NCBI GenBank assembly: GCA_043750125.1
Contig: JAYVCD010000353.1
Span: 1-43,100 of the forward strand
From: Archangiaceae bacterium
GTDB taxonomy: Bacteria; Myxococcota; Myxococcia; Myxococcales; Myxococcaceae
Direction of reading: 5' to 3'
DNA length: 43,100 nt
The position numbers and the translations under genes were made by a program. Positions 8,477 to 26,235 of this stretch are shown here, piece by piece. The stretch's first letter is position 1, and the number at the start of each line of letters is the position of its first letter. Below the pieces are notes generated by a model, which did no database searches, was not told where the DNA came from, and saw only the letters and a list, made by a program, of their open reading frames with translations.

Positions 8477-8573
8477 GGTGTTTCTCCGTTTTTTTTCGGT
8501 TTTGAGGAGTGGGACTTCCATTGAGGAATTTCCCCACCGCGCAAAACCTTCATCGAAATCGACGGGGCCGTTT

Positions 8574-8606
8574 CGGGCGCCGGGCGCCGGGCGCCGGGCG
8601 CCGGCG
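8574..8606. repeat. Intergenic heptamer tandem repeat (CGGGCGC)x4 plus a partial copy
   Basis: Directly visible just after the permease stop codon. Confidence 0.85.
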
Positions 8607-8607
8607 T

Positions 8608-11040: not shown

Positions 11041-11162
11041 TCGAATCGACCCGCGGTGGGGACACAACCTTTCCTGTGGCTGCTGCCCCAGTTGTCATTG
11101 GGGGGACGCCTCGGCTACGAAGCGGACCCTTTGCTGGCCGGTCACTTGAAGGGGTACTTCCA

Positions 11163-12587
11163 ATGAACCAAATTCGCATCCTCGTCGCAGGTTGTGCAGT
11201 GGGCTTGATCATGTTGCTCGCGCCGGCCTGCAGTCCCCCGACCGCGAGCTGCTCGCTCGCCAACTGTAACGGCTGCTGCGACGCGGCCCAGAAGTGTCAA
11301 GGCGGCTCGACGGTCGGAGCCTGCGGCCAGGGCGCCAAGGCGTGCGTCATCTGCACCAGCGCGCAGTCTTGCCAGGCCAACGTGTGCGTCGCCGGAAGCG
11401 GCGTCGGCGGCGGAACTGGAACCGGCGGCGGAACCGGAGTCGGCGGCGGAACTGGAACCGGCGGCGGAACTGGAACCGGCGGCGGAACCGGAGTCGGTGG
11501 CGGAACTGGAACGGGCGGCGGAACTGGAACCGGCGGCGGAACTGGAACCGGCGGCGGGACCGGAGTCGGCGGCGGGACCGGAGTCGGCGGCGGGACCGGC
11601 ACCGGCGGTGGCGGCGGCGTCACGGTCTGCGGCGCAGCCAATTGCGCGGGCTGCTGCACCAGCGCCAACACCTGTCAGGCCACCTCGGCGCAGGGAGTGG
11701 GCTCGTGTGGAATCGGTGGAAAAGCCTGTGCTGCCTGCACCGGAGCTCAGACCTGCAACGCGGGTGTGTGCGGTGTCGTGGCCGTCTCGGTTGGCGCTTC
11801 GTGCGTCAACGACACCGGCTGCGCCATGCTGGGCGCGGGCGCGAAGTGCAAGCAGACCACATCCCGCGGCGATGGCACCTACGCCGGCGGCTACTGCACG
11901 CTCAACTGCACCGGCACCGGACAGGGCAGCTGCCCGACCGGCACCCGCTGCGACAACGGACTGAGCCTCGATCTCTTTGGGGAAAATGACAGCATCTGCC
12001 TCGCCGGTTGCCCCAGCAGCGGCTCACAGTCGACCTGCCGCACCGGCTACAGCTGCTATTTCGGCGCGGCCTCGGGCTCACCGGGCGCTTGCTGGCTCAG
12101 CCCGCCTCCGGCGTACGACGCAGGGTCCGCTCCCGACAAGTTGGCCTACGCGTGCGCTTCGAATTCCCAGTGCCAGAGCCCGCCGAACCCGGCGTTCGGC
12201 TTCTGCTATCCAGCAAGCATCAACGACGCCGGGACCCCGTTCTCAGGGGGCTACTGCATGTCCTCCTGCGAGACTGAGTTTGGCGGGGTCAACGGGTGTG
12301 GTCCCAAGGGCATCTGCCTGGATCTCGGCAGTGCGGCGAATCCCTTCCTCACTTGCCTCGGCACCTGCACGACTCCCAGCTCGGGAAAGATCACCCGTCC
12401 AGGTGGGGGCGCTGGCGGTCCGTACGCTTGCTACGGCTTTCACTTGAGCGACGGTGGCACCCTTCCGTTCGGCTACGTCTGGCCTGCCTGCGACGCGCCG
12501 CTGCGAGGCTGCAGCAGCATTCCAGGCACCACCTGCAACACCACCAAGGGCTTCTGCTGCTACTCCGACGGCGGCTGCGAAGGCTGA
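11163..12587 (+). CDS. Cys-rich lipoprotein with Gly/Thr linker
   Basis: ATG 11163 after GAAGGGG, lipobox-like APAC; two CxxxNCxGCC modules flanking a G[TV]GGGT linker, then two GGYC modules. Confidence 0.85.
   Translation: MNQIRILVAGCAVGLIMLLAPACSPPTASCSLANCNGCCDAAQKCQGGSTVGACGQGAKACVICTSAQSCQANVCVAGSGVGGGTGTGGGTGVGGGTGTGGGTGTGGGTGVGGGTGTGGGTGTGGGTGTGGGTGVGGGTGVGGGTGTGGGGGVTVCGAANCAGCCTSANTCQATSAQGVGSCGIGGKACAACTGAQTCNAGVCGVVAVSVGASCVNDTGCAMLGAGAKCKQTTSRGDGTYAGGYCTLNCTGTGQGSCPTGTRCDNGLSLDLFGENDSICLAGCPSSGSQSTCRTGYSCYFGAASGSPGACWLSPPPAYDAGSAPDKLAYACASNSQCQSPPNPAFGFCYPASINDAGTPFSGGYCMSSCETEFGGVNGCGPKGICLDLGSAANPFLTCLGTCTTPSSGKITRPGGGAGGPYACYGFHLSDGGTLPFGYVWPACDAPLRGCSSIPGTTCNTTKGFCCYSDGGCEG
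11400..11615 (+). repeat. 18-bp coding tandem repeat, ~12 copies (G[TV]GGGT)
   Basis: GGAACCGGCGGCGGAACT-type units visible in tandem. Confidence 0.9.
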
Positions 12588-12608
12588 AGTTCGAGGAGAT
12601 TGTTTTCC

Positions 12609-12651
12609 AAAAAGCCCGGCATCCCAAATTCGGGGCGCCGGGTTTTTCTTT
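12609..12651 (+). terminator. Rho-independent terminator
   Basis: AAAAAGCCCGGC..CCC-loop-GGG..GCCGGG followed by TTTTTCTTT, just after the stop at 12587. Confidence 0.8.
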
Positions 12652-12663
12652 GACGGTCTTCCA

Positions 12664-13438
12664 ATGCGTCGGCTGAATCTTCAGATCGCGCTCGAGCCCT
12701 TCGCGGTCGAGCTGGACTTTGGCCTGGGTCGATTTCCTCGGGCCAGCGCGAGACGACGCGCGGACCCTGCGGTTCACCGACAATCTGCAACCGGCTCCGA
12801 CCGGGCCACGGGTGATGCCGAAGATCGAAGGGACGAAAATCCTCGGCTCCGGCTTCGAAGCGCAGCTGCTCGGAGCCCACGCGGAAATCACCGGATCCCA
12901 CGAGCGGCTCGGAATCGAAGCGGTGCTGAAGCTGATGCTGGCGACCGCGTTGCTGGCTCGCTCGGCCCTGCTCGTCCACAGCGTCGCGCTGAGCGAGGGT
13001 CAGGGCTGCGCAGTCTTTCTGGGGGAATCGGGGGCAGGGAAGTCCACCCTGGGACAGCTCGGAGCCAGCGGCGGCCTGCGGCGTTTGGCCGACGAGCTCG
13101 TCGTGCTCGATGCAGAAGGGTGGGCGCACGGCACGCCCTGGAACATCGGGCTTTCAGAAGCAGCACAAGTGCGACTGCTGGGCACCCTGGGTTGGAGCGA
13201 GCGCTGCCGACTCGAGCCCGTCGCAGCCACCGACTTTCTGCCTTTGCTGCTGTCGAACACGCTGTTGGCCGACGATCGCCCTGCGACCCGGGGGACGGTT
13301 TTTCAGCTCGCGACGGGCCTGCTCAAGGCACATCAACCCGAGCGGTTCTTCTTCCCGCCGTCTGCAGCCGCGGCGCCGTTTCTGCGTTCGACGCTGCTCA
13401 GTAAAGCGGCTCGACCGCCGCGGCCCACAGCCGGTTGA
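12664..13438 (+). CDS. HprK-related P-loop kinase (paralogue 1), apparent +1 frameshift near the 5' end
   Basis: LLVHSVAL, GESGAGKSTL, LADELV, GTPW. The ATG 12664 frame (MRRLNLQIALEPFAVELD) is one base out of frame with the main ORF 12719-13438. Confidence 0.75.
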
Positions 13439-14517: not shown

Positions 14518-15579
14518 TCAAGCATTGAGCCGCTTGCGCAGCTTCGCGCAGGGTTTTTCGATCGCCAGGTAGATGCCGTAGGAGATCGCCATCGCAAGTG
14601 CGAGCGCAATCATTCCCTGAAGGACCCCGTGCAGTTGGGGAAGGTATCGGTGCACCCCGAAGATGATCAGGTGGTGGGTCAGGTACAGCGAAAACGAGAG
14701 CACGCCGATGAACGACATCACCCGCGTATTGAGCAGTCGAAAGGGCAGAACTGTCGGCCAGCGAATGGCAACGATGAAGATTGGAACCAGCGCCAGGCCC
14801 TGAAGGCTGTACCGCGCCGATTCGCGAAATTGATCATCGCGCCACACGAAGGCCAGCAACAACACCCCCACCGACAGCGGCAGCATCACGTACTTCCAGA
14901 ACGCCGGGCTGCCTTTGGGGTCTCCGTCGAGCACCGGGTTGCCCCAGACGGCGAGCGCCGCTCCAAACAGAATCGAGTCGAACCGGGTGTCGCTGGCGAG
15001 GTAGGTGCGGTCGGTGGGCGAGTTGAACCAGAACACCAGCACGCAGCGCCACAGCAAGATCAGCCCGCACAGACTCCACAAGATGATCGCCTGTCGTCGG
15101 TGACTGGCCCGCAATCGCCGCAGCAACAAGTAGAGCCAGGGAAAGAGGAAGTAGAAATGTTCCTCCACCGCCAGCGACCAGTACACCCCCGTGCCCAGGG
15201 CCTGGCCCGAGTACCCGTGGTAGACGATCCAATAGTTTGCGTAGTGCAGGAACTGCGCGGCGACCGCCTGGGGGTTGAGCTGCCCACCCAGCACCGCCAA
15301 CGCCGCCAATACCGTCCCCACTGTAAGGACGAAGTAGAACGGCGGCAGAATTCGCAACACCCGGCGCAGGTAGAAAGCCTTCAAGCTCAGCGTGCCTGTC
15401 TTTTCGAACTCGGTGCGCATCAGGGTGGTGATCAAAAAACCTGAGAGAAAAAAGAAGACCGTCACCCCAAACCCGCCCGGGACGTACTTCTCGAGCCCGG
15501 CGTGGGCGACGAAGACGATCCCGAAGCTCACCGCACGCAGGCCGTCCAGCGAGGGAATGTGGAAGGCGCTCTTCGACAC
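14518..15579 (-). CDS. Acyltransferase family 3 (OafA/YrhL-like O-acyltransferase)
   Basis: SLDGLRA, FFFLSGFLIT, FYLRRVLRI, WSLAVEEHFY, SFSLYLTH. Confidence 0.92.
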   Translation of the reverse strand: MSKSAFHIPSLDGLRAVSFGIVFVAHAGLEKYVPGGFGVTVFFFLSGFLITTLMRTEFEKTGTLSLKAFYLRRVLRILPPFYFVLTVGTVLAALAVLGGQLNPQAVAAQFLHYANYWIVYHGYSGQALGTGVYWSLAVEEHFYFLFPWLYLLLRRLRASHRRQAIILWSLCGLILLWRCVLVFWFNSPTDRTYLASDTRFDSILFGAALAVWGNPVLDGDPKGSPAFWKYVMLPLSVGVLLLAFVWRDDQFRESARYSLQGLALVPIFIVAIRWPTVLPFRLLNTRVMSFIGVLSFSLYLTHHLIIFGVHRYLPQLHGVLQGMIALALAMAISYGIYLAIEKPCAKLRKRLNA

Positions 15580-15615
15580 GCGGTGTGCCTAGCATGCTAT
15601 GGAATTGCGCTCCCC

Positions 15616-17703
15616 ATGCGCGTGCGTCCTCTCGTCGCGTCCTTCCTGGTGCTGTTTTCCTGCGAAGGCTCCATTGAAGTTCCGCAAGGGCTCCTCAACG
15701 GGGGCTCGTGCGCGGACCCAGGTCACGTCACGCTGCGCCGTCTGAACCGAATCGAATACGACAACACCTTGCGAGATTTGCTGGGCGACACCACCAGCCC
15801 TTCGAACAATTTTCCACCCGACCCTTCGGCCAGCTTCGACAACAACGGCGATGTGCTCGCGATGTCCCCGCTGCTGCTCGAGCTCTATGAGAGCACCGCC
15901 GCTCGAGTCGTCGACGCCGCGCTATTGCCCCCGGCCGCCCCGATTTCCCACCAGTACGATGCGCCCGGACTGCACGCCGCGATGTGCCCCGGCGGAGTCG
16001 CTCCCCCCGGTTCGGACTACACCTGCTTTGGACCCGTCGACTCGACCGCCGGCACCCCGCCCACTCCGACCCTCGACATCTGGGAACACGACTACTACCT
16101 CGACAAGCTCGAGGCGTTTCCTTCCGACGGGGACTACGTGCTGTCCGTTCGCGCGTTTCAGGCCGGCAGCGTCGTCGCCAAGCTCAACGTGATCGTCGAC
16201 GGCAGAATCGTTCACCAAAGCGACGTGACCGCCCCGCGCGCCGCCCCGGTGGTGATTGCAGTGCCGGTGACGCTCGCCGCCGGCAACCATCGAATTCAGA
16301 TTCGAAACGCCAACGCGGCCCGCGGGTACGACCGGGACCTGGGCGTTGCGTTTCTCAAGGTCGATGGGCCGAACAACGTTCCCAACCCCGCCCGCGAAGC
16401 GCTGCGAATGAAGACGTTCGCCTGTGATCCGGCGAAAGACGGCGGCGAAGACGTCTGCGCGCGAAAAATTCTCTCTGAGTTCGCCCACCGCGCCTACCGC
16501 CGGCCGGTCACCGACGCTGAAATGACCGGCTTGGTCGCGCTGGTGCAGCTGGCGAAGATGCAGGGCGACGATTTTAAAACCGGCATCCGCCTCGCGTTCA
16601 AGCGGGTGCTGACCTCGGCCGAGTTCATCTTCAAGGCCGAGTTCGACGATGCCCCCGACACCCTCGACGCTCATCCGGTCAGCGAGCTCGAGCTGGCCAC
16701 CCGGCTGTCGTACTTCCTCTGGGCCAGCACGCCCGACGACGAGCTGTTGCGCGTGGCCGAGCAAGGAGGGCTTTCAAACCCCGCAACCCTCGAGGTTCAG
16801 GCCCGGCGGCTGCTCAGCGACCCGAGGTCCGATGCGCTGGTCGAGGTCTTCGCGTCCCAGTGGATGAAGCTGCGCTCGCTGACTCCGGCCAGCCCCGCGC
16901 TCGACATTTACCCGGGCTTCGATGGCGCGCTGAAGACCGCGATGCGCGATGAGACCTTGTTGTTCCTGCGCAGCTTCGTTCGGGAAGACCGCAGTGCGCT
17001 CGAGCTGCTCGACGCGCGCTTCACCTTCCTCAACGAGAAATTGGCCGGGCACTACGGGATCACCGGAGTCACCGGCCCCGCGATGCAGCGGGTCGAGCTG
17101 ACGACGGCGCAACGCGGCGGGCTGTTGACCCAGGGAAGCATCCTCACCCTCACCTCGGTGCCCAACCGCACGTCCCCGGTCAAGCGCGGGAAGTGGGTAC
17201 TGGAGCAGCTGCTGTGTCAGGAACCTCCGCCTCCCCCGGCGAACGTGCCCGCCCTCCCCGAAGGAATCGACGCCACCGGCAAGACCCTTCGCCAGCTTGC
17301 CGAAGCCCACCGCAACAACCCTTCGTGCTCGGCCTGCCATTCTCAGATGGACCCGATCGGCTTTTCGCTCGAGCACTTCGATGGCGTAGGTCATTGGCGC
17401 GACAAGGACGGGACCCTGGCGATTGATGCGACGGGGGCGTTGCCCGACGGCCGCACCTTCGATGGTTCCAGCGGGCTGGCGAGCGTCCTCAAAGACGACG
17501 CCCGGGTGCCGCGGTGCATCTCGCGCAAGATGTTGACCTACGCGATCGGTCGCGAGCTCAACGAGACGACGGACAGCTGCGCACTCGATGTCTTGAGCCT
17601 GCAGATGAGCAAGAAAGGCTACCGGCTGGGTGAGCTGGCGCTGCAGGTGGTGAAGACCCATCAGTTCGGTGAGCGCCGCGGCGCGAAGGCGGTGACGCCA
17701 TGA
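15616..17703 (+). CDS. DUF1592-type (PSD/PSCyt multi-domain) lipoprotein with c-type heme motif
   Basis: LRRLNRIEYDNTLRDLLG, RLSYFLWASTPD, RTSPVKRGKWV, CSACH..MDPIGFSLEHFD; lipobox-like LFSC. Confidence 0.88.
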   Translation: MRVRPLVASFLVLFSCEGSIEVPQGLLNGGSCADPGHVTLRRLNRIEYDNTLRDLLGDTTSPSNNFPPDPSASFDNNGDVLAMSPLLLELYESTAARVVDAALLPPAAPISHQYDAPGLHAAMCPGGVAPPGSDYTCFGPVDSTAGTPPTPTLDIWEHDYYLDKLEAFPSDGDYVLSVRAFQAGSVVAKLNVIVDGRIVHQSDVTAPRAAPVVIAVPVTLAAGNHRIQIRNANAARGYDRDLGVAFLKVDGPNNVPNPAREALRMKTFACDPAKDGGEDVCARKILSEFAHRAYRRPVTDAEMTGLVALVQLAKMQGDDFKTGIRLAFKRVLTSAEFIFKAEFDDAPDTLDAHPVSELELATRLSYFLWASTPDDELLRVAEQGGLSNPATLEVQARRLLSDPRSDALVEVFASQWMKLRSLTPASPALDIYPGFDGALKTAMRDETLLFLRSFVREDRSALELLDARFTFLNEKLAGHYGITGVTGPAMQRVELTTAQRGGLLTQGSILTLTSVPNRTSPVKRGKWVLEQLLCQEPPPPPANVPALPEGIDATGKTLRQLAEAHRNNPSCSACHSQMDPIGFSLEHFDGVGHWRDKDGTLAIDATGALPDGRTFDGSSGLASVLKDDARVPRCISRKMLTYAIGRELNETTDSCALDVLSLQMSKKGYRLGELALQVVKTHQFGERRGAKAVTP

Positions 17704-19025
17704 AGTTCAAGCTCTCGCGTCGAACCCTGCTGCGGGCCTCGGGGGTCGCGCTCAGTCTTCCCTTCCTCGAAGCGATGATGCCGCGCACCGCTCAAGCCGC
17801 CGCGGGAAAGGCGCTGCGCCTGGTCGGCTGGTACCTGCCCAATGGGTACTACCGCACCACCACCGCGGGGGTGGTGAAGGACGATTGGACTCCCACCGGC
17901 ACTGGCACCAACTACACGCTGAGCCCGATTCTTCAGCCGCTGTTGCCGTTCAAGAGCGACTTTCAGGTGCTGACCGGAATCCAGAATGCTCCGGCCGAGC
18001 TGTCGAGCATCAGCTGTGGCCACGCCCGCGGCACGGGCAGCTTCTTGAGCTGCGTCGCGCCGGGGGGAGCCGGGACCGTCGGGGGTCTGTCGATGGACCA
18101 GGCGGCGGCCGCCCAGCTCAAACAGTTCACCCGGTATTCGTCGATCGAGCTGGGCACCGACTCGGTCGGGGGCGACGTTCCGATTCGCAGCGCGATTGCG
18201 TGGGCCGACGCCAACACTCCGCTGGCGAAAGAGACGCGCGCGAGCAGCCTGTTCGATCGCTTGTTCGCCGGCCCCGAGGCCAACCTCTCGATGGCCGAGA
18301 AACAAAAACGGCTGCTGTACCGAAAGAGCATCCTCGATTCGGTGCTCTCGTCGGCCAATGGGTTGAAGGCCAGGCTTGGCAGCGGCGACAAGCAGAAGCT
18401 CGAGGGCTACCTGACCGGGGTTCGCGAGCTCGAGCAGCGGCTGGATGCTCCGGCCGGAACGGCGGCCTGCATGCCGGGGACACGGCCTCCTCCGACGGGC
18501 GACATCCGCACCCAGGTCAAGCAGCTGCTCGACGTGATGGCGCTCGCCTTCCAGTGCGATGTGACCCGCGTCTCGACGTTCATGTTTGATCGCGCCGGCA
18601 GCGATCTGGCGTTCCCGTTCTTGACCGCCAATGGCGCGCCGATCAACGCCGGCTGGCACGGGACTTCGCACCACCACGGAGTAGCCGCGAACCTCGCGCA
18701 GCTCAAATCGATCTTGATCTGGCAGATGGAACAGTTCGCGTACTTCCTCGGGAAGCTGAAGGCGATCGACGAAGGGGGCGAGTCGGTGCTCGCCAAGAGC
18801 TGCATCTTCTTGTCTTCCGAGCTGGGCGATGGAGATCTCCACGAGCACAAGAACCTGCCGGTGATCGTGGCGGGCGGCGCTGGCGGAGCGCTGACTCCCG
18901 GCAAGCACCTCGTCTTCACCAATCAGCCGCACAAGTCCGACCTGTTCTTGACCCTGCTGCACAGCGTGGGCGTCAACGTGACGAAGTTCGGCGCAGATTC
19001 GACGACCGCGCTCGTGATGAGCTGA
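17700..19025 (+). CDS. DUF1552 domain protein (Tat-exported)
   Basis: SRRTLLR..LPFLEAM Tat signal, LAFQCDVTRV, HGTSHH; ATGA-coupled to the DUF1592 gene. Confidence 0.88.
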   Translation: MKFKLSRRTLLRASGVALSLPFLEAMMPRTAQAAAGKALRLVGWYLPNGYYRTTTAGVVKDDWTPTGTGTNYTLSPILQPLLPFKSDFQVLTGIQNAPAELSSISCGHARGTGSFLSCVAPGGAGTVGGLSMDQAAAAQLKQFTRYSSIELGTDSVGGDVPIRSAIAWADANTPLAKETRASSLFDRLFAGPEANLSMAEKQKRLLYRKSILDSVLSSANGLKARLGSGDKQKLEGYLTGVRELEQRLDAPAGTAACMPGTRPPPTGDIRTQVKQLLDVMALAFQCDVTRVSTFMFDRAGSDLAFPFLTANGAPINAGWHGTSHHHGVAANLAQLKSILIWQMEQFAYFLGKLKAIDEGGESVLAKSCIFLSSELGDGDLHEHKNLPVIVAGGAGGALTPGKHLVFTNQPHKSDLFLTLLHSVGVNVTKFGADSTTALVMS

Positions 19026-19048: not shown

Positions 19049-20053
19049 GTGCTCACTGTGCTCCTGCTGACCCTGGCTCAAACCCCCGAGCCCACGCTTC
19101 GAATCCGCGCTGTGGGTGACGTGATGCTCGGCACCACGGTGCCCGAAGGCTTTCTTCCGCCCGAGGACGGGGTTCATTCGCTCGACGACGTAGCCGACTG
19201 GCTCAAAGACGCAGATCTCACCTTCGCCAATCTCGAGGGCCCGCTGTGCGACTCGGGCGAGACGACGAAGTGCAAGAAGACCGGCACCTGCTACGCATTT
19301 CGGTGTCCCACCCATTACGTGAAGTACCTCGTCGACGTGGGGGTGGACCTGGCTTCCACCGCCAACAACCACGCGGGCGATTTCGGGGACGTCTGTCGGC
19401 GAGAGACCGAGAAGACGCTCGATGGCGCCGGCATCACCTGGAGCGGAGCCAAGGGCACCATCGGCACCCGCACCCTTCCCGACGGGCGGAAGCTGGCCCT
19501 GGTCGGCTTCCACACTTCGGCCGTGACCAATGACATGAATGATCTCGAAGCGGCGCGCGCGATCGTGAAGCAGGCGAAGGCCGGCAACGACCTGGTGATC
19601 GTCAGCTTTCACGGGGGAGGCGAGGGGACCAAAGCCAATCGGGTGGTGAAGGGCACCGAGACGTACCTGGGCGAAAACCGCGGCGACCTGCCGGCGTTCA
19701 CCCACGCGGTGATCGACGCCGGCGCGGACCTGGTGCTCGGGCACGGCCCCCACGTGCTGCGCGGGCTCGAGCTCTACAAGGGACACCTGATCGCCTACTC
19801 GATGGGAAATTTTGCGACCTACGGCCGCTTCAATCTCTCAGGCCCGCTGAAGATCGGCGTGGTCCTCGAGGTGGAACTGGCCAAAGACGGCGCCTTCGTT
19901 CGCGGCAAGCTTCTTCCCACCGCGCAGGAAGGGCAGGGGATTCCGAAGAAAGATCCCCAGGCGCGGGCGGTGAAGATGGCCGCTGAGCTGACCGCGCTCG
20001 ATTTCCCGAAGTCGGGCGTGAAGATTGGAAGCGATGGGGTGCTCAGCCTTTAG
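19049..20053 (+). CDS. CapA/PGA_cap family metallophosphoesterase-like protein
   Basis: VGDVMLG, NLEGP, ANNHAGDFG, SFHGG, GHGPHV, YSMGNF. Confidence 0.9.
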   Translation: MLTVLLLTLAQTPEPTLRIRAVGDVMLGTTVPEGFLPPEDGVHSLDDVADWLKDADLTFANLEGPLCDSGETTKCKKTGTCYAFRCPTHYVKYLVDVGVDLASTANNHAGDFGDVCRRETEKTLDGAGITWSGAKGTIGTRTLPDGRKLALVGFHTSAVTNDMNDLEAARAIVKQAKAGNDLVIVSFHGGGEGTKANRVVKGTETYLGENRGDLPAFTHAVIDAGADLVLGHGPHVLRGLELYKGHLIAYSMGNFATYGRFNLSGPLKIGVVLEVELAKDGAFVRGKLLPTAQEGQGIPKKDPQARAVKMAAELTALDFPKSGVKIGSDGVLSL

Positions 20054-20216
20054 CCGCGCGCCCTTTTTAAAAGAAGACGTTCGGGTCGTGCCGGGCCGCA
20101 GTTTGATGGCGGTCGCGGTGAAGTTGCGGTCAAGCAAGGTGACGGCGTGGGTCGGGCTCGGCGGGGGCGCGGGGCTGGGGGCGCTTCGCGACACCCAAAT
20201 GTTCCCACGCTGAAGC

Positions 20217-21021
20217 TCAGCTCGCGGCCAGCGCTTGCGAGAGCACGCTGGCCACCCCAACGTTCGGCGCAAATGCCAGGCGCACCGCTGGCACCACTGC
20301 GAGCAGCCGGCTTGCGATTTGGAACAACGAAGAGCGCACCTGAGGCGAAGCCGCCGGCTCCAGCACGTTGGGCAACAGAACCCGTAACACCTCTGAAGGC
20401 GCGATCGGCGAGAGCTGTGCAAACGGGGCATGGGCCAGAATTCCGATCTGCTTCAACGAGGCGCGCCCTGCGGTGCTGGCATTCCAGGGCGTTGCCCAGA
20501 CTGAAAAACCAGTCTGCTCAGGAAGGACCCCGACCAGCTCGTCTGAGAGCAGCTGGAGTCCGCCCGCGCGCCCCCACCATCCCAGAGTGCTCTTCCCCGC
20601 TCCCGAGGCCCCCGTGAAGAGGGCCGCGCGGCCTTGATCGGCAAGGGCCACCCCGTGAACCAGCAGCCCGCCGCGGCGCAGCAGGGAATCACCCAGCAGA
20701 ACCCGGACCACCGCTTCGATCGGGAACCGCTCGAGCGGCCCGCGCACCCACCCCTCGCGGCGGTCGGCGGAAATGCGCGCCTCGAAGCAATCGCCGTCGA
20801 GCCTCAACCCCCCGTCGGGTTCGAGGCGAGTGGCCGGCAGCAGCGGCAGCCAGGCGGCAGGCCGGATGACCTGGCCGCGCAGCTCAACCTTCAGCGCGAG
20901 CCGGCTCGCCAGTGGGGGCACGGCAAAGGCATGCCAAGACTCACCGATTGGGTCGAGGTGTGCCGAACCCTCGAGCGAAAATTCGAAGCCGGCAATCGAA
21001 AAGGAAGAGATGAGCCCTCAA
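20217..21021 (-). CDS. HprK-related P-loop kinase (paralogue 2), 5' end frameshifted or non-canonical
   Basis: GLLVHGVAL, GASGAGKSTL, LSDELV, ATPW. The coding frame is open upstream of GTG 20921 to 21017 (SIAGFEFSLEG); the coupled TTG at 21021 is one base out of frame. Confidence 0.75.
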
Positions 21022-21188
21022 CCCCCGCTCGGGATGCAGATGTCCGATACGCAGATATCCTGCAGCGCGCAAGGGGGCGAGCAGGCAGCCAAGGCGGTGA
21101 ACTCGTGCTCCCACAAAATTACCGGAGCCTCGTAACGGTCAGGACTCGATTCGGATGGAAGCGGCTTCTTATCGTCCATTGAAGACAT
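21018..21188 (-). CDS. Putative RiPP precursor peptide (56 aa; YEAP leader motif, 4-Cys core)
   Basis: MSSMDDKKPLPSESSPDRYEAPVILWEHEFTALAACSPPCALQDICVSDICIPSGG; fills the gap between the propeller gene and the kinase, in an operon headed by PqqD. Alternative start ATG 21179. Confidence 0.7.
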   Translation of the reverse strand: MSSMDDKKPLPSESSPDRYEAPVILWEHEFTALAACSPPCALQDICVSDICIPSGG

Positions 21189-21192
21189 TCTA
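21187..21192 (-). promoter_or_regulatory. Putative -10 element (TAGAAT) 7 nt before ATG 21179
   Basis: TAGAAT-N7-ATG, no Shine-Dalgarno; would give the peptide its own leaderless transcript. Confidence 0.4.
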
Positions 21193-21195
21193 AAC

Positions 21196-24100
21196 TCAGA
21201 ACGGAAGATCGACCGCGCACAGTCGCCCGTCCAGCCCTCCGACGAACAAGCGCCTGGGAGATGTGGTGTGATCGATCGAAGGCATCCCCAACGCGGTCGC
21301 CGAGACACTGAAAGAAGCCTCGACTGCTCCGGTGGCGAAGTCGATCCGGTACACTCTTCCCAGTGAGTCCGAGACGTACAGTTTGTAAGGCGCGACGAAG
21401 GCGTCTAGCCGCGCGGCCGAAGCGCCGCTGAGCGCGGGAGGAGCCGCCCACACCGGGCTCACCGTGCTGCCCCCATCGCCATTCGCGGTGACCGTATAAC
21501 GCTGGACTCCGGCGGGGGTGCTGGCGACGAAGCCGTAGGCCCCCAGCGGAACCAGATACCCCGAAACCGCGCCGCCCAGATTGTAGCTCCACCGCTGGGC
21601 CATTGTGTTGAGGTCGAATCCGTACGCAACGCCCGCGTTGGTGACGACGTAAATTTCCCCGGCGGTCGAGTTGCGCGTCACCGCATCGTCGATGTCCCCC
21701 AGATTAAAGGTGGGCATCACCGCCAGCGGGTTGAGGGTGTCGACGATTCGAAGGGACGGCTGGGTGCCTCCAACGCCGGCGCGGCTGGCCACCCAGAGCC
21801 GGTTGTTCCGATAGTCGACGGCCATTCCCCCGCTGATGATGTCGAGGTTCCCCGGGTTGAGGGACCACTTCTGGGTACCGTCGACACTGGACAGCGCCCA
21901 GATCCGGTTGGTGCTGGTGCTGGCGGTGCGGGTGCCGAAGAAGACCAGATCCATGTTGGGGTATCGGGCCCGGAACGCAGCCCCTCCGTCGGTCGCCGGG
22001 TCCGTGAATTGCGTCAACTGCACCGCAGCCTGTGCCTGGACTCCGCCGATGCTTGCCCCGCCATTTCCGTTCCACACCGTCAAACCCGTGTCGACGTCAA
22101 TCGCATAGGTGAACCCGGACTGATCGCCGCCGAGCAGGTACGTCCCGGTACGGCCGAACAGCGGGGTCACCGTCGGGCGGCTCTGGACGATGCCGGTGGT
22201 AGCAGCCGGCCGCCAGCGCTCAGTGCCGCCGAGCGTGGGATCGGTCGAAATGTTGATTCCGGTGTACGCCCTCGCGTTGCTCGAAGTGTAGACGCCCTTT
22301 CCGAAATCAGTGAACGGCTGCTGCGGCGTGGGGAGGCCGACGCTGTAACACCACGCCGGCGACGTCGGAGCGCCCGAGGTCGGGATCGCGAACAGCCCCG
22401 AGCTGGTGGGAACGTCGCCCGACGAATACAGGTTGTAGGCGTCGTGGTTGAAGACCTTGTAGTAGTAGCGAGTGCCGTTGGTCAGTCCTGTGTCCCCATA
22501 GGTCGACGCGTAGCTCTGTAGATCTGCGTACAGAACGGTGGCGTTTCCCACTCCACCATCAGCTTGATTTGGAACTTCTCCCACGTTGTACCTGCGCCCA
22601 TTGACGGGCGCCGCGTTGGGGATCCCCGCGGTCGAGCGCAGCAGCAGCGATCCATCGTGATCGAGCGGGTTGTTCCAGGCCAGCCCGATTTTCGAGTTGG
22701 TGGCGATCGCGGTGAAACTGCTCAGCGCCGGCACTGTGCGGGGCACGAAGATCGAAACCGGGGTCTCGACCCGCACCGTGGTGCCGTCGGCCTGAAGCAG
22801 CTCGAACCGATGACTGAAGGTGGTGGTCGCAGTAACGGTGGCGATCGAGCTGAAGGTGAAAGTGAACTTCCGGGTGCTGTTTCCGGGAGGGGGCTGGATG
22901 TTAACGGCGGTGTTGGGCGAGGTGATCGGCGTCTTCCTCAGCGAACTGCTGTGGTTGCCCGGAGTCCAGCCCGACGTATCGGCCGACCAGGGAGTTCCCG
23001 AGGCGAGGAAGTGAGAATCGGGATCCAGCAGGCTGATTCCCTTGATGTCCTGATTGGCGCCGTTGAAGACCGTGTATTCCACCGACACCGGCCCGCTGTT
23101 CGACAGAACGTTCGGGTTGGCCGACACGGTGTGGGTGACGACCAGGCCGGTGGCCGAGCCGACCGGATCGCTCGAGATCGGAAACCCGCCGGAGACGGCA
23201 TTGGCCTGGCCGCTGAACTGGAACGTGCTGCCGGGGATGCCGGTGATTGTGTAGAAATAGACAAAGCTGGTTCCACTGCCCGGCGGTAACGAGGTCTGGC
23301 TGGCGGGCGTGGGCCCGCTGTTGAGCGTTGCAGTCACGGTCCCAGTCAAAGACGGCGTCGTGGGTGAGACGTTCAGGTACTGGCCGTTAGAGTTGTTGCG
23401 CACCGAGAGGGTGACCCGCACCGTTGAGCCGGAAACGAGCTTGTCGGGATAAATGCTGATCGTCCCCGGAAACCGGCCAGCGGCGAGATCACCGGTGTCG
23501 ACCGATTGGGAGTTGAGGCTGTTGGTGCTGGTATGCCCCGAGTCGGTGAAGCGGAAGACTCCTTGGTTGTTGCTGCGGTAGGTCCACTGGAAGACCCCGG
23601 TCGCGTCTTGCGCCAGCACGATCGAGGTCGGGCTGGGGGAGGTCAGCAGGGTGAACGCCGCAGGGACGGCCGGCATGGCGGTAAGGACGTCGGTGATGGT
23701 GGGGTCAAAGCGAGGCAGGAGCGTGGCGCTGCCGGTGCTGCGGTTGGTCAACGTGAGAGTCACCGTCACCGTCGCACCTGTCGGAGTCGAAGTCGGGTTT
23801 ACCGACAGGCTTGCCCCAATGCCGATTCGTTTCCAGGTTGGACTGGTGCCCAGGGTCACCACCGGAGCTCCTGTGGCGCACGCGAAGCTGGCTGAGGTCT
23901 TGTTTCCGTTGCCGGTAGTGATGAAGACCTCCGAATTCTGATCGGCATTGGCGGGCTGGCCGATGACTCTCAAGGTGAAAACGGCGGAGCCACCGGCAGC
24001 GATTCCCCGTGGACAGGCGGATCCGGTGGCGGTGAAGACCACCTTGCGATTGAGCTTGTCGACCGTGCTCACCTGCCAACCGACAGGAGCCAGGCCCCCG

Positions 24101-24324
24101 TCAATGTCGTAGTTGCTCTGGGTGAGCTGGAGGTTGACTTGCGTCAGCGCCTCGCCGCCCGTGCTGGTGTTGTTGACGTTGAACGAGATCGACGAGATCT
24201 CACCCATGACCGCCGATCCACTGGCGTAAGTGCTGGTCCAACTCGCGGTGGCGAACGCCGTGGCCGGAGCCAGCAACAAAGCGGTGAGAAGAATTAGATT
24301 TCTCATTGGGCCGATTTGCCTCAT
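21196..24324 (-). CDS. Large secreted protein: Ig-like repeats, FN3-like domain and C-terminal PQQ-like beta-propeller
   Basis: Signal peptide ending ATAFA; S/T-rich beta domains; YGDTGLTNGTRYYYKVF (FN3-like); propeller blades YAIDVDTGLTVW, ALSSVDGTQKW, FDLNTMAQRW. Confidence 0.8.
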   Translation of the reverse strand: MRQIGPMRNLILLTALLLAPATAFATASWTSTYASGSAVMGEISSISFNVNNTSTGGEALTQVNLQLTQSNYDIDGGLAPVGWQVSTVDKLNRKVVFTATGSACPRGIAAGGSAVFTLRVIGQPANADQNSEVFITTGNGNKTSASFACATGAPVVTLGTSPTWKRIGIGASLSVNPTSTPTGATVTVTLTLTNRSTGSATLLPRFDPTITDVLTAMPAVPAAFTLLTSPSPTSIVLAQDATGVFQWTYRSNNQGVFRFTDSGHTSTNSLNSQSVDTGDLAAGRFPGTISIYPDKLVSGSTVRVTLSVRNNSNGQYLNVSPTTPSLTGTVTATLNSGPTPASQTSLPPGSGTSFVYFYTITGIPGSTFQFSGQANAVSGGFPISSDPVGSATGLVVTHTVSANPNVLSNSGPVSVEYTVFNGANQDIKGISLLDPDSHFLASGTPWSADTSGWTPGNHSSSLRKTPITSPNTAVNIQPPPGNSTRKFTFTFSSIATVTATTTFSHRFELLQADGTTVRVETPVSIFVPRTVPALSSFTAIATNSKIGLAWNNPLDHDGSLLLRSTAGIPNAAPVNGRRYNVGEVPNQADGGVGNATVLYADLQSYASTYGDTGLTNGTRYYYKVFNHDAYNLYSSGDVPTSSGLFAIPTSGAPTSPAWCYSVGLPTPQQPFTDFGKGVYTSSNARAYTGINISTDPTLGGTERWRPAATTGIVQSRPTVTPLFGRTGTYLLGGDQSGFTYAIDVDTGLTVWNGNGGASIGGVQAQAAVQLTQFTDPATDGGAAFRARYPNMDLVFFGTRTASTSTNRIWALSSVDGTQKWSLNPGNLDIISGGMAVDYRNNRLWVASRAGVGGTQPSLRIVDTLNPLAVMPTFNLGDIDDAVTRNSTAGEIYVVTNAGVAYGFDLNTMAQRWSYNLGGAVSGYLVPLGAYGFVASTPAGVQRYTVTANGDGGSTVSPVWAAPPALSGASAARLDAFVAPYKLYVSDSLGRVYRIDFATGAVEASFSVSATALGMPSIDHTTSPRRLFVGGLDGRLCAVDLPF

Positions 24325-24830
24325 GGGGTCAGCTCGAAGTTGTGATTTTGCACTGACTTGCCATCGATCAGCAGGCGCGCGGTCCAGGTGCCAATCATTT
24401 TCCCGGTGTCGACTGCGGTCGCGGCGACAGGCAAAACGAACTCGAGCGGGTGCGGCTCGAAGGCAGAGCCCTCAAGCGCAACTTCCTGCCGGTCGTAGGG
24501 AGCCCCGGCGGGGTTGACGAACTCGAGGGCCGCCGTGCTGGGAGCGCCGGCACCGAACACCTCGAAAGCCACCGTCACCTGGCGTACCCGGGGGATGCTG
24601 GTTTCCAAAGCAGGAACGACGGTGATCCGAGAGGTCGCACGCAAAGGCGGCACGGGTTGCTCAACCGGAGTCGCGAGCCCAATCAGAGAGGCCGGCTCGA
24701 GCGACGGATTTTGAAGATTGTCCGGGGGGAGGACCACGTTCCCACCTGGGTCGAGGATTTTCCCGGCCGACTCCTGCTGAACACAGCCGGCCAACGACAA
24801 CACCACCACCGCGCTCCAAACTCTCATCAT
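24321..24830 (-). CDS. Hypothetical lipoprotein
   Basis: Lipobox LAGC; ATGA overlaps with both neighbours. Confidence 0.8.
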   Translation of the reverse strand: MMRVWSAVVVLSLAGCVQQESAGKILDPGGNVVLPPDNLQNPSLEPASLIGLATPVEQPVPPLRATSRITVVPALETSIPRVRQVTVAFEVFGAGAPSTAALEFVNPAGAPYDRQEVALEGSAFEPHPLEFVLPVAATAVDTGKMIGTWTARLLIDGKSVQNHNFELTP

Positions 24831-25150
24831 TTGCCTCCAGCTGAATTCGGAGTGGGTTGATCGAGCCTCAACAACTTTTTCTGAGCCAACTTGACAACGA
24901 AGGGCGCGACATCATGCAGGGCGCGCTCGGCGGGGACCCCAAATTCCGAAGCAACGCAGCTGGCGATCTCGGCGACCGAGCGGCGACCATCAATCAATTC
25001 CCAGACTCGCGCTCCGGTGGGGTTGAGCCCGCGCACGACGCTCCCTGGTGCATCTAAAATCACGAACTCCGTGCCCAGCCGGCTGGAGTCCGTGCCTGAT
25101 GCTTTGAGTGGAATTCTTCCCTCGTCCAACAGCGTTTTCGACTCGGTCAT
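24827..25150 (-). CDS. Stand-alone PqqD-family protein (RiPP recognition element)
   Basis: EFVILD..GLNPTGARVWELIDGRRSVAEIA..EFGV..ALHDV..FVVKLAQKKLL, the PqqD/RRE signature. Confidence 0.9.
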   Translation of the reverse strand: MTESKTLLDEGRIPLKASGTDSSRLGTEFVILDAPGSVVRGLNPTGARVWELIDGRRSVAEIASCVASEFGVPAERALHDVAPFVVKLAQKKLLRLDQPTPNSAGGK

Positions 25151-25335
25151 TGGACGTCAAATCTATAGGATCATCGAGCAGAGATCGAGGCGGCGCCCAG
25201 GGTGCCCATGGGGCGCCATTGACCCACAACGCCGTCGCAATGTGGGTCGCCGTATGGTGCGCGGTGCCGACCCAGTCCCAGCAGAACAGCCGGAGCGGAA
25301 ACGCGTGCAGGGGCGAGGGTCTGGGCGCCTGTTCT

Positions 25336-26235
25336 TCACTTTCCCTGAGGCGCTTTGACCTCAATGCCGGCCAGCGTTTCGAAAGCAGTGATCACCGCCG
25401 CGATGTCCGAAGCCCCTTTCCCCGCCGCGCGGGCCAGGTTGTAGGTCTCACGCAGCGACGCGGCGGTCGGCGTCGGTACTTTTTCTTTCGCCGCGCTTTC
25501 GAGAAACAGCCCGAGATCTTTGTGCATCAGGTCGATCGAAAAGTGCGTTCCAAAGTCTCGCTCGAGGATCTGCTTGCCCTTGAAGTCGAAGTACGGCGAA
25601 CGAAAGCCCGACGCAGCCACCACCTCGAGCAGCTTGCGCACGTCGACTCCCGCTTTCGCCGTCAGCAGCATCCCTTCCGACAGGCCCTGAAGCATCGCGG
25701 CGATCAACACGTTTCCGGCCAGCTTCACCTGGGTCGCAGCCCCGACGGGGCCACAGTGAATCGCCTTCTCGCCGACCGCTTCGAAGATCGGCGCACAGCG
25801 CGCAAACGTCTGCGGCGAACAGCCCGTCATGATCACCAAGGTTCCTTTCTCGGCTCCGTTCTTCGACCCCGTTACCGGCGCCTCGGCGAAGTCCACCCCC
25901 CGCTCTGCGAAGGTGGTCTCCAGCTGCTGGGTCAGCTCGGCTGAGACGGTGCTGAAGTCGATGAACAGCTGCCCTTTCCGGGCTCCCGTGAGCAGCCCCT
26001 GGGGCCCCAGCGCGACCTCTCGCAAGGCGGCTGGGTCTGCGACGCAGGTGCAGAAGGCGTCGACTTCCGCAGCCAGCGCGGCCGGGGTCTCGGCGGCGAT
26101 GACCCCGACACTGGCCAGCTCGGCCACCCGCGCGGGAGTGCGGTTGTACGCGTGGACGGTAAAACCTTTGGTCGCGAGGTTCTTCGCCATCCGGCTGCCC
26201 ATCAGACCCAATCCGACAAAACCGATTTTCTTCAT
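25336..26235 (-). CDS. NAD(P)-dependent oxidoreductase, 3-hydroxyisobutyrate dehydrogenase family
   Basis: KIGFVGLGLMG, EAPVTGS, KLAGN, FSIDLMHKDL. Confidence 0.92.
   Translation of the reverse strand: MKKIGFVGLGLMGSRMAKNLATKGFTVHAYNRTPARVAELASVGVIAAETPAALAAEVDAFCTCVADPAALREVALGPQGLLTGARKGQLFIDFSTVSAELTQQLETTFAERGVDFAEAPVTGSKNGAEKGTLVIMTGCSPQTFARCAPIFEAVGEKAIHCGPVGAATQVKLAGNVLIAAMLQGLSEGMLLTAKAGVDVRKLLEVVAASGFRSPYFDFKGKQILERDFGTHFSIDLMHKDLGLFLESAAKEKVPTPTAASLRETYNLARAAGKGASDIAAVITAFETLAGIEVKAPQGK

What the first reader, a model, noticed from the sequence alone, without database searches (positions are those of the whole stretch)
20217..25150. RiPP-like operon: PqqD/RRE, lipoprotein, large secreted beta-propeller, Cys-rich precursor and HprK-related kinase, with no cyclase, protease or radical SAM
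Seen: five tightly packed minus-strand genes (ATGA, ATGA, a 7-nt gap and a TTGA overlap). Known: stand-alone PqqD/RRE proteins bind precursor leaders carrying YxxP motifs, and HPr-kinase homologues phosphorylate lasso precursors (paeninodin type). Inference: a peptide-modification or signalling system whose only local enzyme is a kinase, unusually combined with two cell-envelope proteins that could display or receive the peptide. The set does not match the PQQ, lasso or ranthipeptide gene sets I know; missing enzymes may be encoded elsewhere.
Basis: partly seen in the sequence, partly recalled or inferred. Interest (0 to 1): 0.85.

Follow-up and report, generated by a model that had tools for sequence, protein, structure and literature searches.

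The report
Myxobacterial phosphopeptide operon with propeller protein
This is a real, widely conserved myxobacterial operon that most likely makes a small phosphorylated peptide by a pathway first described in 2026 in Bacillota, here always encoded together with a large secreted propeller protein and a lipoprotein whose link to the peptide nobody has explained.

Summary
The five minus-strand genes are real. They are a PqqD-type peptide-binding protein, a lipoprotein, a 1042-aa secreted protein ending in an FN3-like domain and an 8-bladed propeller, a 56-aa peptide and an HprK-like P-loop kinase.

The order PqqD-lipoprotein-propeller protein-peptide-kinase recurs in 28 of 32 Myxococcaceae loci. 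In 22 of them a small signal-peptidase-like gene lies in front; the window lacks it.

The set is not unmatched. Peptide, PqqD, kinase and that peptidase correspond to LppA, LppB, LppK and LppS of the linear polyphosphorylated peptides (Popov et al. 2026, PMC13381572), reported only for Bacillota. The window's Y19, P22, L25 and S37 align without gaps to a Paenibacillus LppA-like precursor. This predicts cleavage after A34 and phosphorylation of S37.

Differences from that family: no exporter, no NTP transferase, Cys-containing cores, and the two envelope proteins. A second cassette of the same design lies on another contig of this genome. Relatives in other Myxococcota families also carry large secreted proteins.

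One detail is wrong: the TTG of the "TTGA overlap" is out of the kinase frame.

Earlier notes of this scan describe similar cassettes in other genomes. Verdict: a new variant of a known kind; no chemistry was tested.

The parts
24827..25150 (-). PqqD-type RiPP recognition element (107 aa), the LppB/lasso-B1 counterpart. No signal peptide.
   Evidence: PF05402 at 1e-17. A profile of 10 orthologues hits TbiB1 (5v1u) at 1.4e-9 and LppB (9x8z_B) at 1.2e-8. Invariant N43, D80 and near-invariant F84 align to the N, D and F of LppB that the paper names as leader contacts.
24321..24830 (-). Lipoprotein (169 aa): lipobox LAGC, a disordered linker of about 60 residues, then a C-terminal Ig-like beta-sandwich.
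   Evidence: Sequence. No Pfam or NCBIfam family. AlphaFold2 model has pLDDT 79.4, above 90 over residues 61-169; Foldseek gives only weak Ig-like matches (Wzt CBD, PA1606; E about 4e-4 to 1e-3). Present in the same position in 28 of 32 loci. Look-alikes stand beside the propeller protein in L079, L080 and L084.
21196..24324 (-). Large secreted protein (1042 aa): Sec-type signal peptide, an N-terminal half of about 520 residues with no family, an FN3-like domain and a C-terminal 8-bladed beta-propeller.
   Evidence: Sequence. Weak PQQ_2 match (8e-5) at residues 887-1015. Model of residues 520-1042 has pLDDT 82.6 and pTM 0.80. The best natural Foldseek matches are BamB (3q7m, E 1.3e-14, TMt 0.75). 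The C-terminal half is conserved in 9 of 10 loci.
21018..21188 (-). Precursor peptide (56 aa plus stop). Predicted leader is residues 1-34 (nt 21087-21188), with Y19 at 21132-21134 and P22. Predicted core is residues 35-56 (nt 21021-21086, ACSPPCALQDICVSDICIPSGG). Predicted phospho-site is S37 (nt 21078-21080).
   Evidence: Y19, P22, L25 and S37 are invariant in alignment A6, which includes the LppA-like ORF of Paenibacillus violae. The register equals the paper's Y-16, P-13, L-10 and core S3. The cleavage site and phosphorylation are inferred, not shown.
20217..21017 (-). HprK-like / ScmC-family P-loop kinase, the LppK counterpart. The conserved frame has 266 codons. The first canonical start is GTG 20921 (234 aa). 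The Walker A motif GASGAGKST lies at about nt 20586-20612.
   Evidence: TIGR04352 at 2e-6, TIGR04355 at 5e-4 and TIGR04249 (ScmC) at 0.011, all below their cut-offs. Precomputed Pfam PF27840, named ScmC in the Atlas. The profile matches HPr kinase 1jb1/2qmh at 1e-5. Invariant H121-G122, G136-x-SGAGKST and D159-E160. The profile scores 2e-16 on the LppK-like ORF and 1e-13 on the lasso kinase of L040.

Best explanation
The operon is a Myxococcota relative of the linear polyphosphorylated peptide (LPP) pathway.

Proposed steps:
1. The cytoplasmic PqqD protein binds the leader of the 56-aa precursor through Y19 and P22.
2. The HprK-like kinase phosphorylates Ser37, the third residue of the predicted core, once or several times.
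3. The leader (residues 1-34, ending ALA) is removed by an LppS-like archaeal-type signal-peptidase homologue. That gene stands in the operon in most Myxococcaceae. Here it would have to come from the paralogous cassette on contig C239 or from another peptidase.
4. The product would be a short, Cys-containing phosphopeptide (core ACSPPCALQDICVSDICIPSGG).
5. The co-encoded lipoprotein and secreted FN3-plus-propeller protein are its functional partners in the envelope, as receptor, carrier or target.

Shown here: gene content, homology, motif register and conserved synteny. Inferred: the phosphorylation, the cleavage site, any export, and the role of the two envelope proteins.
For: 1. All four LPP core parts have homologues.
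- PqqD against LppB (9x8z_B, 1.2e-8), with N43 and D80 spaced 37 residues apart like LppB N33 and D70.
- Kinase profile against the LppK-like ORF of the Paenibacillus violae LPP cluster (2e-16).
- Myxococcaceae peptidase profile against the LppS-like ORF of that cluster (1.3e-9), the only hit among the ORFs of 9 loci. That ORF passes TIGR02228, archaeal-type signal peptidase I.
- Precursor: Y19, P22, L25 and S37 align without gaps to the LppA-like ORF.

2. The paper shows experimentally that LppK phosphorylates core S3, that LppS cleaves after position -1, and that LppS needs LppB (sections 7 and 11). A Ser stands at that position in 28 of 29 Myxococcaceae peptides (the exception is L029).

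3. Kinase catalytic-type motifs are invariant in 11 orthologues and align to HPr kinase structures.

4. Complex prediction of PqqD plus peptide gave weak support. The ipSAE was 0.56 (three runs 0.56, 0.57, 0.55) and the best of 3 controls was 0.00. The runs agree in at least 87% of contacts, and the partner's pLDDT is at least 53. The tool's calibration: the mark was reached by 58 of 80 solved complexes and 2 of 110 mismatched pairs, but a score of 0.60 or under by only 7 of those 80 and by both mismatches that passed. RRE-leader complexes are solved, so the pass may come from memory.

5. Link to the envelope proteins.
- The order pqqd-lipo-big-pep-kin stands in 28 of 32 loci. Among the 21 loci not used to build the profiles it stands in 19. 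These loci cover 12 genera.
- In other genera the block is flanked by hisS, psd and miaA. In the window's genus it sits between unrelated genes, so it moved as a unit.
- A second cassette in this genome (C239) reads PqqD, a 1788-aa Ig-repeat plus FG-GAP protein, a 53-aa Cys peptide with WKPPAIL, kinase, and an S24-like fusion protein.
- Cassettes in other Myxococcota families carry PQQ-like, FG-GAP or RCC1 propeller proteins. Three of them also have Lipo look-alikes.

6. The peptide is under coding constraint.
Against: - No chemistry was tested. Nothing here shows phosphorylation, cleavage or export.
- The window lacks the LppS-like peptidase. The genome (89% complete) has only one, fused and in another cassette.
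- The operon and its conserved flanks hold no exporter and no NTP transferase. So three of the six LPP core genes are missing here. How a peptide without a signal sequence would reach secreted partners is unexplained.
- Leader positions H-8, F-3, E-2 and T-1 of the LPP motif are not conserved. The paper found that mutating F-3, E-2 and T-1 reduced cleavage.
- The kinase has no canonical start codon in front of its conserved N-terminus.
- The operon is patchy in the genus. The orthologous kinase was found in 2 of 5 genomes (G000 and G003; not in G001, G002 or G004).
- Kinase matches to named NCBIfam models are all below their cut-offs.
- The loci compared are relatives, so synteny counts overstate independence.
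- Some related cassettes lack a Ser at that position and end in Ser instead (L081, L093, L094). The site may therefore differ.
Confidence: 0.6

Rival explanations
1. The window's copy is a decaying remnant. After moving to a new locus it lost the leader peptidase and the kinase start codon, and it no longer makes a mature product, although the ancestral cassette does.
For: - No LppS-like gene in the window, against 22 of 32 loci that have one.
- No ATG, GTG or TTG before 32 conserved kinase residues.
- The orthologous kinase was found in only 2 of 5 genomes of the genus.
Against: - All invariant kinase and PqqD residues are kept.
- All five frames are open.
- The same five-gene form without the peptidase occurs in G003 at 57-79% protein identity, and also in L029, L030 and L031 of other genera.
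- The leader and Ser37 are intact.
- A peptidase of the family exists in the genome.
Confidence: 0.15
2. The kinase-like protein does not phosphorylate the peptide's Ser37. It acts elsewhere, for example on another residue or as an ATP-dependent scaffold. The defining modification concerns the Cys residues and is made by an enzyme encoded elsewhere or by envelope oxidation to disulfides.
For: - A Cys within a few residues of the predicted cleavage site, and a Cys pair, are seen in nearly all related peptides, including those without the Ser.
- Related cassettes carry a radical SAM/SPASM enzyme (L093).
- The family is named after ScmC of the uncharacterised SynChlorMet cassette.
Against: - No such enzyme lies in 28 of 28 five-gene loci.
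- Ser stands at motif position 19 in 28 of 29 peptides.
- The homologous LppK is shown to phosphorylate exactly that position.
Confidence: 0.12
3. A cyclase-less leftover of a phosphorylated lasso-peptide cluster (paeninodin type).
For: - The kinase and PqqD are homologous to the lasso kinase and B1.
- The YxxP leader is of the lasso type.
Against: - No Asn-synthase-like cyclase on this contig or on C239; the four PF00733 matches are on other contigs.
- No B2 protease; the best PF13471 match is 5.6e-4, below the cut-off.
- No C-terminal Ser, which is the site of the lasso kinases.
- The register and the peptidase type match LPP, not lasso.
- The cyclase-less form is conserved in 28 of 32 loci.
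Confidence: 0.03
4. Phospho-Ser37 is an intermediate. Elimination gives dehydroalanine, which a neighbouring Cys attacks to form a lanthionine-like thioether.
For: A conserved Ser has a Cys 1-3 residues away in nearly all family members. Phosphorylation followed by elimination is the known route in lanthipeptide classes II to V (recalled, from no call).
Against: No lyase or cyclase homologue in the operon or its flanks. LPP products keep their phosphates.
Confidence: 0.05

Closest known systems
Linear polyphosphorylated peptides (LPP; lppA-K-B-S-D-N) of Bacillota; Popov et al., Nat Commun 2026, PMC13381572 (read: outline and sections 6, 7, 8, 11, 12; supplements not seen)
   Same: - A discrete PqqD-type RRE with the same Asn and Asp contacts.
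- An HprK-like kinase.
- A precursor with Tyr, Pro, Leu and the phosphorylated Ser in the same register.
- An archaeal-type signal-peptidase-like leader peptidase in most orthologous loci.
- No macrolactam cyclase.
   Different: - Found in Myxococcota, whereas the paper calls LPP restricted to Bacillota.
- No MsbA-like exporter and no NTP transferase.
- No peptidase in the window itself.
- Leader end is A-L-A instead of F-E-T.
- Short cores of 14-22 residues with Cys pairs, highly conserved within Myxococcus and Corallococcus-size genera.
- A large secreted propeller protein and a lipoprotein lie between the PqqD and peptide genes.
- Vertically inherited beside hisS and miaA, rather than patchy.
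Paeninodin-type phosphorylated lasso peptide clusters (read: passages of review PMC8498205)
   Same: HPr-kinase homologue acting on the linear precursor; stand-alone PqqD/B1; [Y/W]xxP leader.
   Different: No cyclase, no B2 protease and no C-terminal Ser. The peptidase is of another type.
SynChlorMet cassette (ScmC/ScmD/ScmE/ScmF; NCBIfam TIGR04248-04251) and the HprK-related kinase A/B systems (TIGR04352, TIGR04355), defined by comparative genomics only
   Same: The kinase carries the Pfam ScmC family (PF27840). The PqqD matches ScmD weakly (2e-6). A related Myxococcota cassette (L093) has a radical SAM/SPASM gene.
   Different: No radical SAM enzyme here. All matches are below the curated cut-offs. 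No product or function is known for these systems; searches found no paper text.

Membership tests
LPP (linear polyphosphorylated peptide) RiPP family | Precursor with the leader motif YxxPxVLxHQxIxFETxxS, with Tyr at -16, Pro at -13 and the phospho-Ser at core position 3 | tested here: met
   Ungapped register of Y19, P22, I24, L25 and S37 against the Paenibacillus LppA-like ORF (motif). His, Phe, Glu and Thr of the motif are not kept (window EH...ALA).
LPP (linear polyphosphorylated peptide) RiPP family | Discrete RRE (LppB) with Asn and Asp contacts to the leader | tested here: met
   PF05402 at 1e-17. 9x8z_B at 1.2e-8, with N and D aligned. N43 and D80 are invariant in 10 of 10 orthologues.
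LPP (linear polyphosphorylated peptide) RiPP family | HprK-like kinase (LppK) | tested here: met
LPP (linear polyphosphorylated peptide) RiPP family | Archaeal-type signal-peptidase-I-like leader peptidase (LppS) in the cluster | tested here: not met
   Absent from the window. Present directly upstream of PqqD in 22 of 32 related loci and homologous to the LppS-like ORF of L040.
LPP (linear polyphosphorylated peptide) RiPP family | MsbA-like exporter (LppD) | tested here: not met
   No ABC exporter in the operon or its conserved flanks. The ABC-2-type pair at 8608-11067 is 9 kb away and is not conserved with the block.
LPP (linear polyphosphorylated peptide) RiPP family | NTP transferase (LppN, NTP_transf_5) | tested here: not met
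   The only PF14907 match in the genome is on contig C170.
LPP (linear polyphosphorylated peptide) RiPP family | (Poly)phosphorylated linear product | not testable with these tools
   Needs mass spectrometry.
Lasso peptides | Asn-synthase-like macrolactam cyclase and a transglutaminase-like B2 protease | tested here: not met
   no PF13471 match over the cut-off. PF00733 matches lie only on four other contigs.
SynChlorMet (SCM) cassette | Radical SAM/SPASM maturases ScmE and ScmF beside ScmC and ScmD | tested here: not met
   None in the window's block or in the related loci. ScmC and ScmD matches are below their cut-offs.

The most novel reading that the evidence does not exclude
The phosphorylated, Cys-containing peptide is the dedicated ligand, or a cofactor-like partner, of the co-encoded secreted beta-propeller protein and lipoprotein. 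This would be a peptide-receptor pair of the myxobacterial envelope. Paralogous cassettes would pair different peptides with different propellers (PQQ-like, FG-GAP, RCC1). It would give LPP-type peptides their first biological role, testable in Myxococcus xanthus around MXAN_3730.
Probability: 0.25. Interest if true: 0.8.

Novelty: new variant of a known kind. Interest (0 to 1): 0.6.

Why it matters
LPP-type peptides were described only in 2026. The paper reports them only for Bacillota and states that their biological role is unknown.

This operon shows a stripped-down relative that is vertically conserved across Myxococcaceae, including the model organism Myxococcus xanthus (kinase MXAN_3730). 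It is always joined to a secreted propeller protein and a lipoprotein.

That pairing recurs in paralogous cassettes with other propeller types. It points to a concrete partner for the peptide, and so to a testable function in a genetically tractable host. It also widens the known range of the signal-peptidase-like leader peptidase and the HprK-like peptide kinases.

Earlier notes of this scan describe similar cassettes in Acidobacteriota, Gemmatimonadota and uncultured myxobacteria. I did not check those notes. If they hold, the theme may be broad.

Tried and rejected
- The search for related loci in genome contigs with the kinase alignment was swamped by the generic P-loop pattern. It hit the 600-stretch limit and confirmed only 9 distant relatives. 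It gave no Myxococcota loci, but it did give the Paenibacillus LPP/lasso locus L040.
- The promoter and terminator scan of 19900-25600 was uninformative: 0 promoter-like sites, and 3 terminator-like sites against 4.3 expected.
- No RNA holder was listed among the sequencing runs, so nothing can be said on expression.
- Literature searches found no paper text on this operon. 'HprK-related kinase' gave 0 papers. 'SynChlorMet' gave 0. RiPP + HPr kinase + Myxococc gave 0. MXAN_3726 to MXAN_3731 gave 0.
- PqqD + Myxococcus gave 6 papers; I saw 5 as listing and abstract starts and probed one. RRE-containing + myxobacteria gave 21 papers, seen as listing and abstract starts only, none on this operon by that view. 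In PMC12710340 only a reference-list passage matched. Supplements were not searchable and may list the cluster as a generic 'RRE-containing' region.
- Scan notes by place and by sequence returned nothing.
- Selenocysteine or read-through at the TGA between peptide and kinase was considered as a general feature and rejected. In the same-genus locus L023 the two frames differ.
- No peptide ORF with the leader motif lies beside the second kinase paralogue at 12719-13438.
- The idea that the N-terminal ACSPPC of the predicted core mimics a metal-binding hook was dropped. Only the two genomes of this genus have it.
Full report
**Observation**

The window carries five co-directional minus-strand ORFs between 20217 and 25150.
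- PqqD, 24827-25150.
- A lipoprotein, 24321-24830.
- A 1042-aa protein with a Sec-type signal peptide, 21196-24324.
- A 56-aa peptide, 21018-21188.
- A P-loop protein ending at 20217.

The first two junctions are 4-nt ATGA overlaps. A 7-nt gap precedes the peptide.

The TTG of 'TTGA' opens a frame that closes after 25 codons. The conserved kinase frame is the peptide's own frame and continues straight after its TGA. It has no ATG, GTG or TTG until GTG 20921, yet 32 conserved residues lie upstream of that codon. Contigs of four sequencing runs agree with the window over 20800-21300 without indels, although two of them may be the assembly's source. The kinase start remains unexplained.

**What the proteins are**

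PqqD matches PF05402 at 1e-17.

The kinase matches HprK-related models only below their cut-offs: TIGR04352 at 2e-6, TIGR04355 at 5e-4 and ScmC TIGR04249 at 0.011.
- A profile of 11 orthologues aligns to HPr kinase structures (1jb1 and 2qmh at 1e-5, 1ko7 at 7e-4) over His-Gly, the P-loop and an acidic pair.
- Precomputed Pfam gives PF27840, which the Atlas names ScmC.
- The Atlas also lists a cluster of PqqD fusions whose models resemble this kinase.

The C-terminal 523 residues of the large protein fold with pLDDT 82.6 into an FN3-like domain plus an 8-bladed propeller. The best natural matches are BamB.

The lipoprotein is a lipobox, a disordered linker and an Ig-like sandwich.

Orthologues are named 'hypothetical protein' in Myxococcus, Pyxidicoccus and Vitiosangium. 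The M. xanthus DK1622 kinase is MXAN_3730.

**Conservation**

A kinase-profile search of 401 genomes of the phylum found 138 with E at or below 1e-20. The 65 best places (E at or below 1.1e-61) lie in 65 genomes, all of the window's family.

I fetched the neighbourhoods of 31 of these genomes and scored them with profiles. Profiles for 21 of the loci were built without them.
- The order peptidase-PqqD-lipoprotein-propeller protein-peptide-kinase stands in 22 of 32 loci, the window included.
- The five-gene core stands in 28 of 32, from 12 genera.
- The exceptions are L024 (kinase divergent, no PqqD found), L025 (peptidase-PqqD-kinase only), L117 (kinase only) and L120 (PqqD-kinase).

In other genera the block is flanked by hisS, psd and miaA. 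So part of this conservation is plain vertical synteny. In the window's genus, however, the five genes sit together between a CapA-like gene and a dehydrogenase. They therefore moved as a unit, and lost the peptidase.

Within that genus the orthologous kinase was found in 2 of 5 genomes.

**The peptide**

The peptide ORF lies directly upstream of the kinase in 33 of 34 genomes. The consensus is YEPPAILWEQPFVALAQ(I/V)S, followed by a short core with two Cys.

Variable sites in 10 orthologues fall 8, 8 and 20 on codon positions 1, 2 and 3, with 283 synonymous against 202 non-synonymous pairwise codon differences. The window's genus has a diverged core with four Cys.

**Comparison with the known**

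Notes of this scan on other genomes pointed to Popov et al. 2026 (PMC13381572). I read its outline and sections 6, 7, 8, 11 and 12. The paper describes the following.
- It defines linear polyphosphorylated peptides of Bacillota.
- The precursor LppA has the leader motif YxxPxVLxHQxIxFETxxS.
- The kinase LppK puts several phosphates on core Ser3.
- The RRE LppB contacts Tyr-16 through Asp70 and the kink at Pro-13 through Asn33.
- An archaeal-type signal-peptidase-like LppS cuts after position -1, and only when LppB presents the peptide.
- There is also an exporter and an NTP transferase.
- The biological role is stated to be unknown, and the family is said to be restricted to Bacillota.

It proves to be an LPP cluster next to a lasso cluster.
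- Its LppA-like ORF aligns to the Myxococcaceae peptides without gaps from Tyr to Ser. Y19, P22, L25 and S37 of the window are invariant.
- The Myxococcaceae peptidase profile hits only its LppS-like ORF (1.3e-9).
- The kinase and PqqD profiles score slightly better on its LPP genes than on its lasso genes: 2e-16 against 1e-13, and 3.8e-11 against 3.6e-7.
- The PqqD profile hits LppB (9x8z_B, 1.2e-8) with Asn and Asp aligned. N43 and D80 are invariant and 37 residues apart, as in LppB.

This predicts for the window a leader of residues 1-34 ending ALA, a core ACSPPCALQDICVSDICIPSGG, and phosphorylation of S37. A Ser stands at that position in 28 of 29 family peptides.

A complex prediction of PqqD with the peptide gave weak support. 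The ipSAE was 0.56 and the best of 3 controls was 0.00. Contact agreement was at least 87% and the partner's pLDDT at least 53. The mark was reached by 58 of 80 solved complexes and 2 of 110 mismatched pairs, but at 0.60 or under by only 7 of those 80 and by both passing mismatches. Because like complexes are solved, the pass may be from memory.

**Differences from LPP**

- No exporter and no NTP transferase stand in the operon or its conserved flanks. The genome's only NTP_transf_5 gene is on another contig.
- The window has no peptidase. The only one in the genome is a fusion protein in another cassette.
- The last leader residues differ.
- The cores are short, Cys-paired and strongly conserved.
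- Two envelope proteins are inserted between the PqqD gene and the peptide gene.
- Lasso membership fails. There is no B2, and no cyclase on these contigs. Lasso kinases act on a C-terminal Ser, which is absent here.

**The envelope partners**

The same design recurs independently. On contig C239 of this genome stand a PqqD, a 1788-aa Ig-repeat plus FG-GAP protein, a 53-aa peptide with WKPPAIL and a Cys-rich end, a kinase paralogue and an S24-like fusion protein. They lie between unrelated housekeeping genes.

In other Myxococcota I found related cassettes.
- Some carry a roughly 2000-aa FG-GAP protein (L089-L092).
- Some carry PQQ-like propeller proteins with Lipo look-alikes (L079, L080, L084).
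- One carries an RCC1/EGF protein (L081).
- One carries a C25-peptidase protein together with a radical SAM/SPASM gene (L093).

The constant parts are thus PqqD, peptide, kinase and usually the peptidase. The variable part is a large secreted protein, most often with a propeller.

PqqD, peptide and kinase have no signal peptides, so a topological gap remains. Nothing here explains how the peptide would reach the envelope.

**Verdict**

However, the core belongs to a family published in 2026, and the 'missing' protease is a lineage-specific loss.

I rate it a new variant of a known kind. It is an LPP-like phosphopeptide module of Myxococcota, coupled to a secreted propeller protein and a lipoprotein. 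All chemistry is inferred.

Similar cassettes were noted before by this scan on other DNA. I used those notes as leads and checked only the paper and the Myxococcota pattern myself.

Noticed in passing
window 20921-21021: The peptide ORF and the conserved kinase frame are one continuous frame, interrupted only by the peptide's TGA. No canonical start codon precedes 32 conserved kinase residues. Contigs of four runs confirm the sequence. Possible explanations: an ATC or ATT start, reinitiation, read-through fusion, or truncation.
   Followed up: partly
own genome contig C239, locus L078:2327-9954 (minus strand): A second complete cassette of the same design: PqqD, a 1788-aa Ig-repeat plus FG-GAP propeller protein, a 53-aa Cys-rich peptide with a WKPPAIL leader, a kinase paralogue, and an S24-like peptidase fused to a further domain. 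It holds the only LppS-like peptidase of the genome.
   Followed up: partly
window 10926-13438 (+): A third ScmC/HprK-like kinase paralogue (12719-13438, 39% identical to the operon's kinase) directly follows a Cys- and Gly-rich lipoprotein with GGTGT repeats. It has no PqqD and no recognisable precursor ORF. The pair recurs in two genomes of the same genus.
   Followed up: partly
window 7922-11067 (minus strand): A secreted protein with three near-identical Cys-rich repeats (about 7922-8530) lies downstream of an ABC-2-type transporter pair (permease 8608-10257, ATPase 10258-11067). No link to the operon was found.
   Followed up: no
L093:3151-9743: A related cassette in another genus of the family. 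It reads S24-like peptidase, PqqD, a 1295-aa protein with a C25 (gingipain-type) peptidase domain, a peptide ending in Ser, a radical SAM/SPASM enzyme, and the kinase. This links the radical-SAM-less and radical-SAM-containing forms.
   Followed up: no
L040:1810-10034 (Paenibacillus violae): An LPP cluster (LppA-like ORF with YIRPMVLSQQPVRFETAQS, kinase, PqqD, SipW-like peptidase, ABC exporter, NTP_transf_5) lies directly next to a paeninodin-type lasso cluster. This is the arrangement the 2026 paper describes.
   Followed up: partly
window 15502-19025 (+): A DUF1592/DUF1588-like protein and a DUF1552-like protein form a pair; I named these families by eye and did not test them. A CapA-like gene follows at 19049-20053. 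These flank the operon and are unrelated to its flanks in other genera.
   Followed up: no
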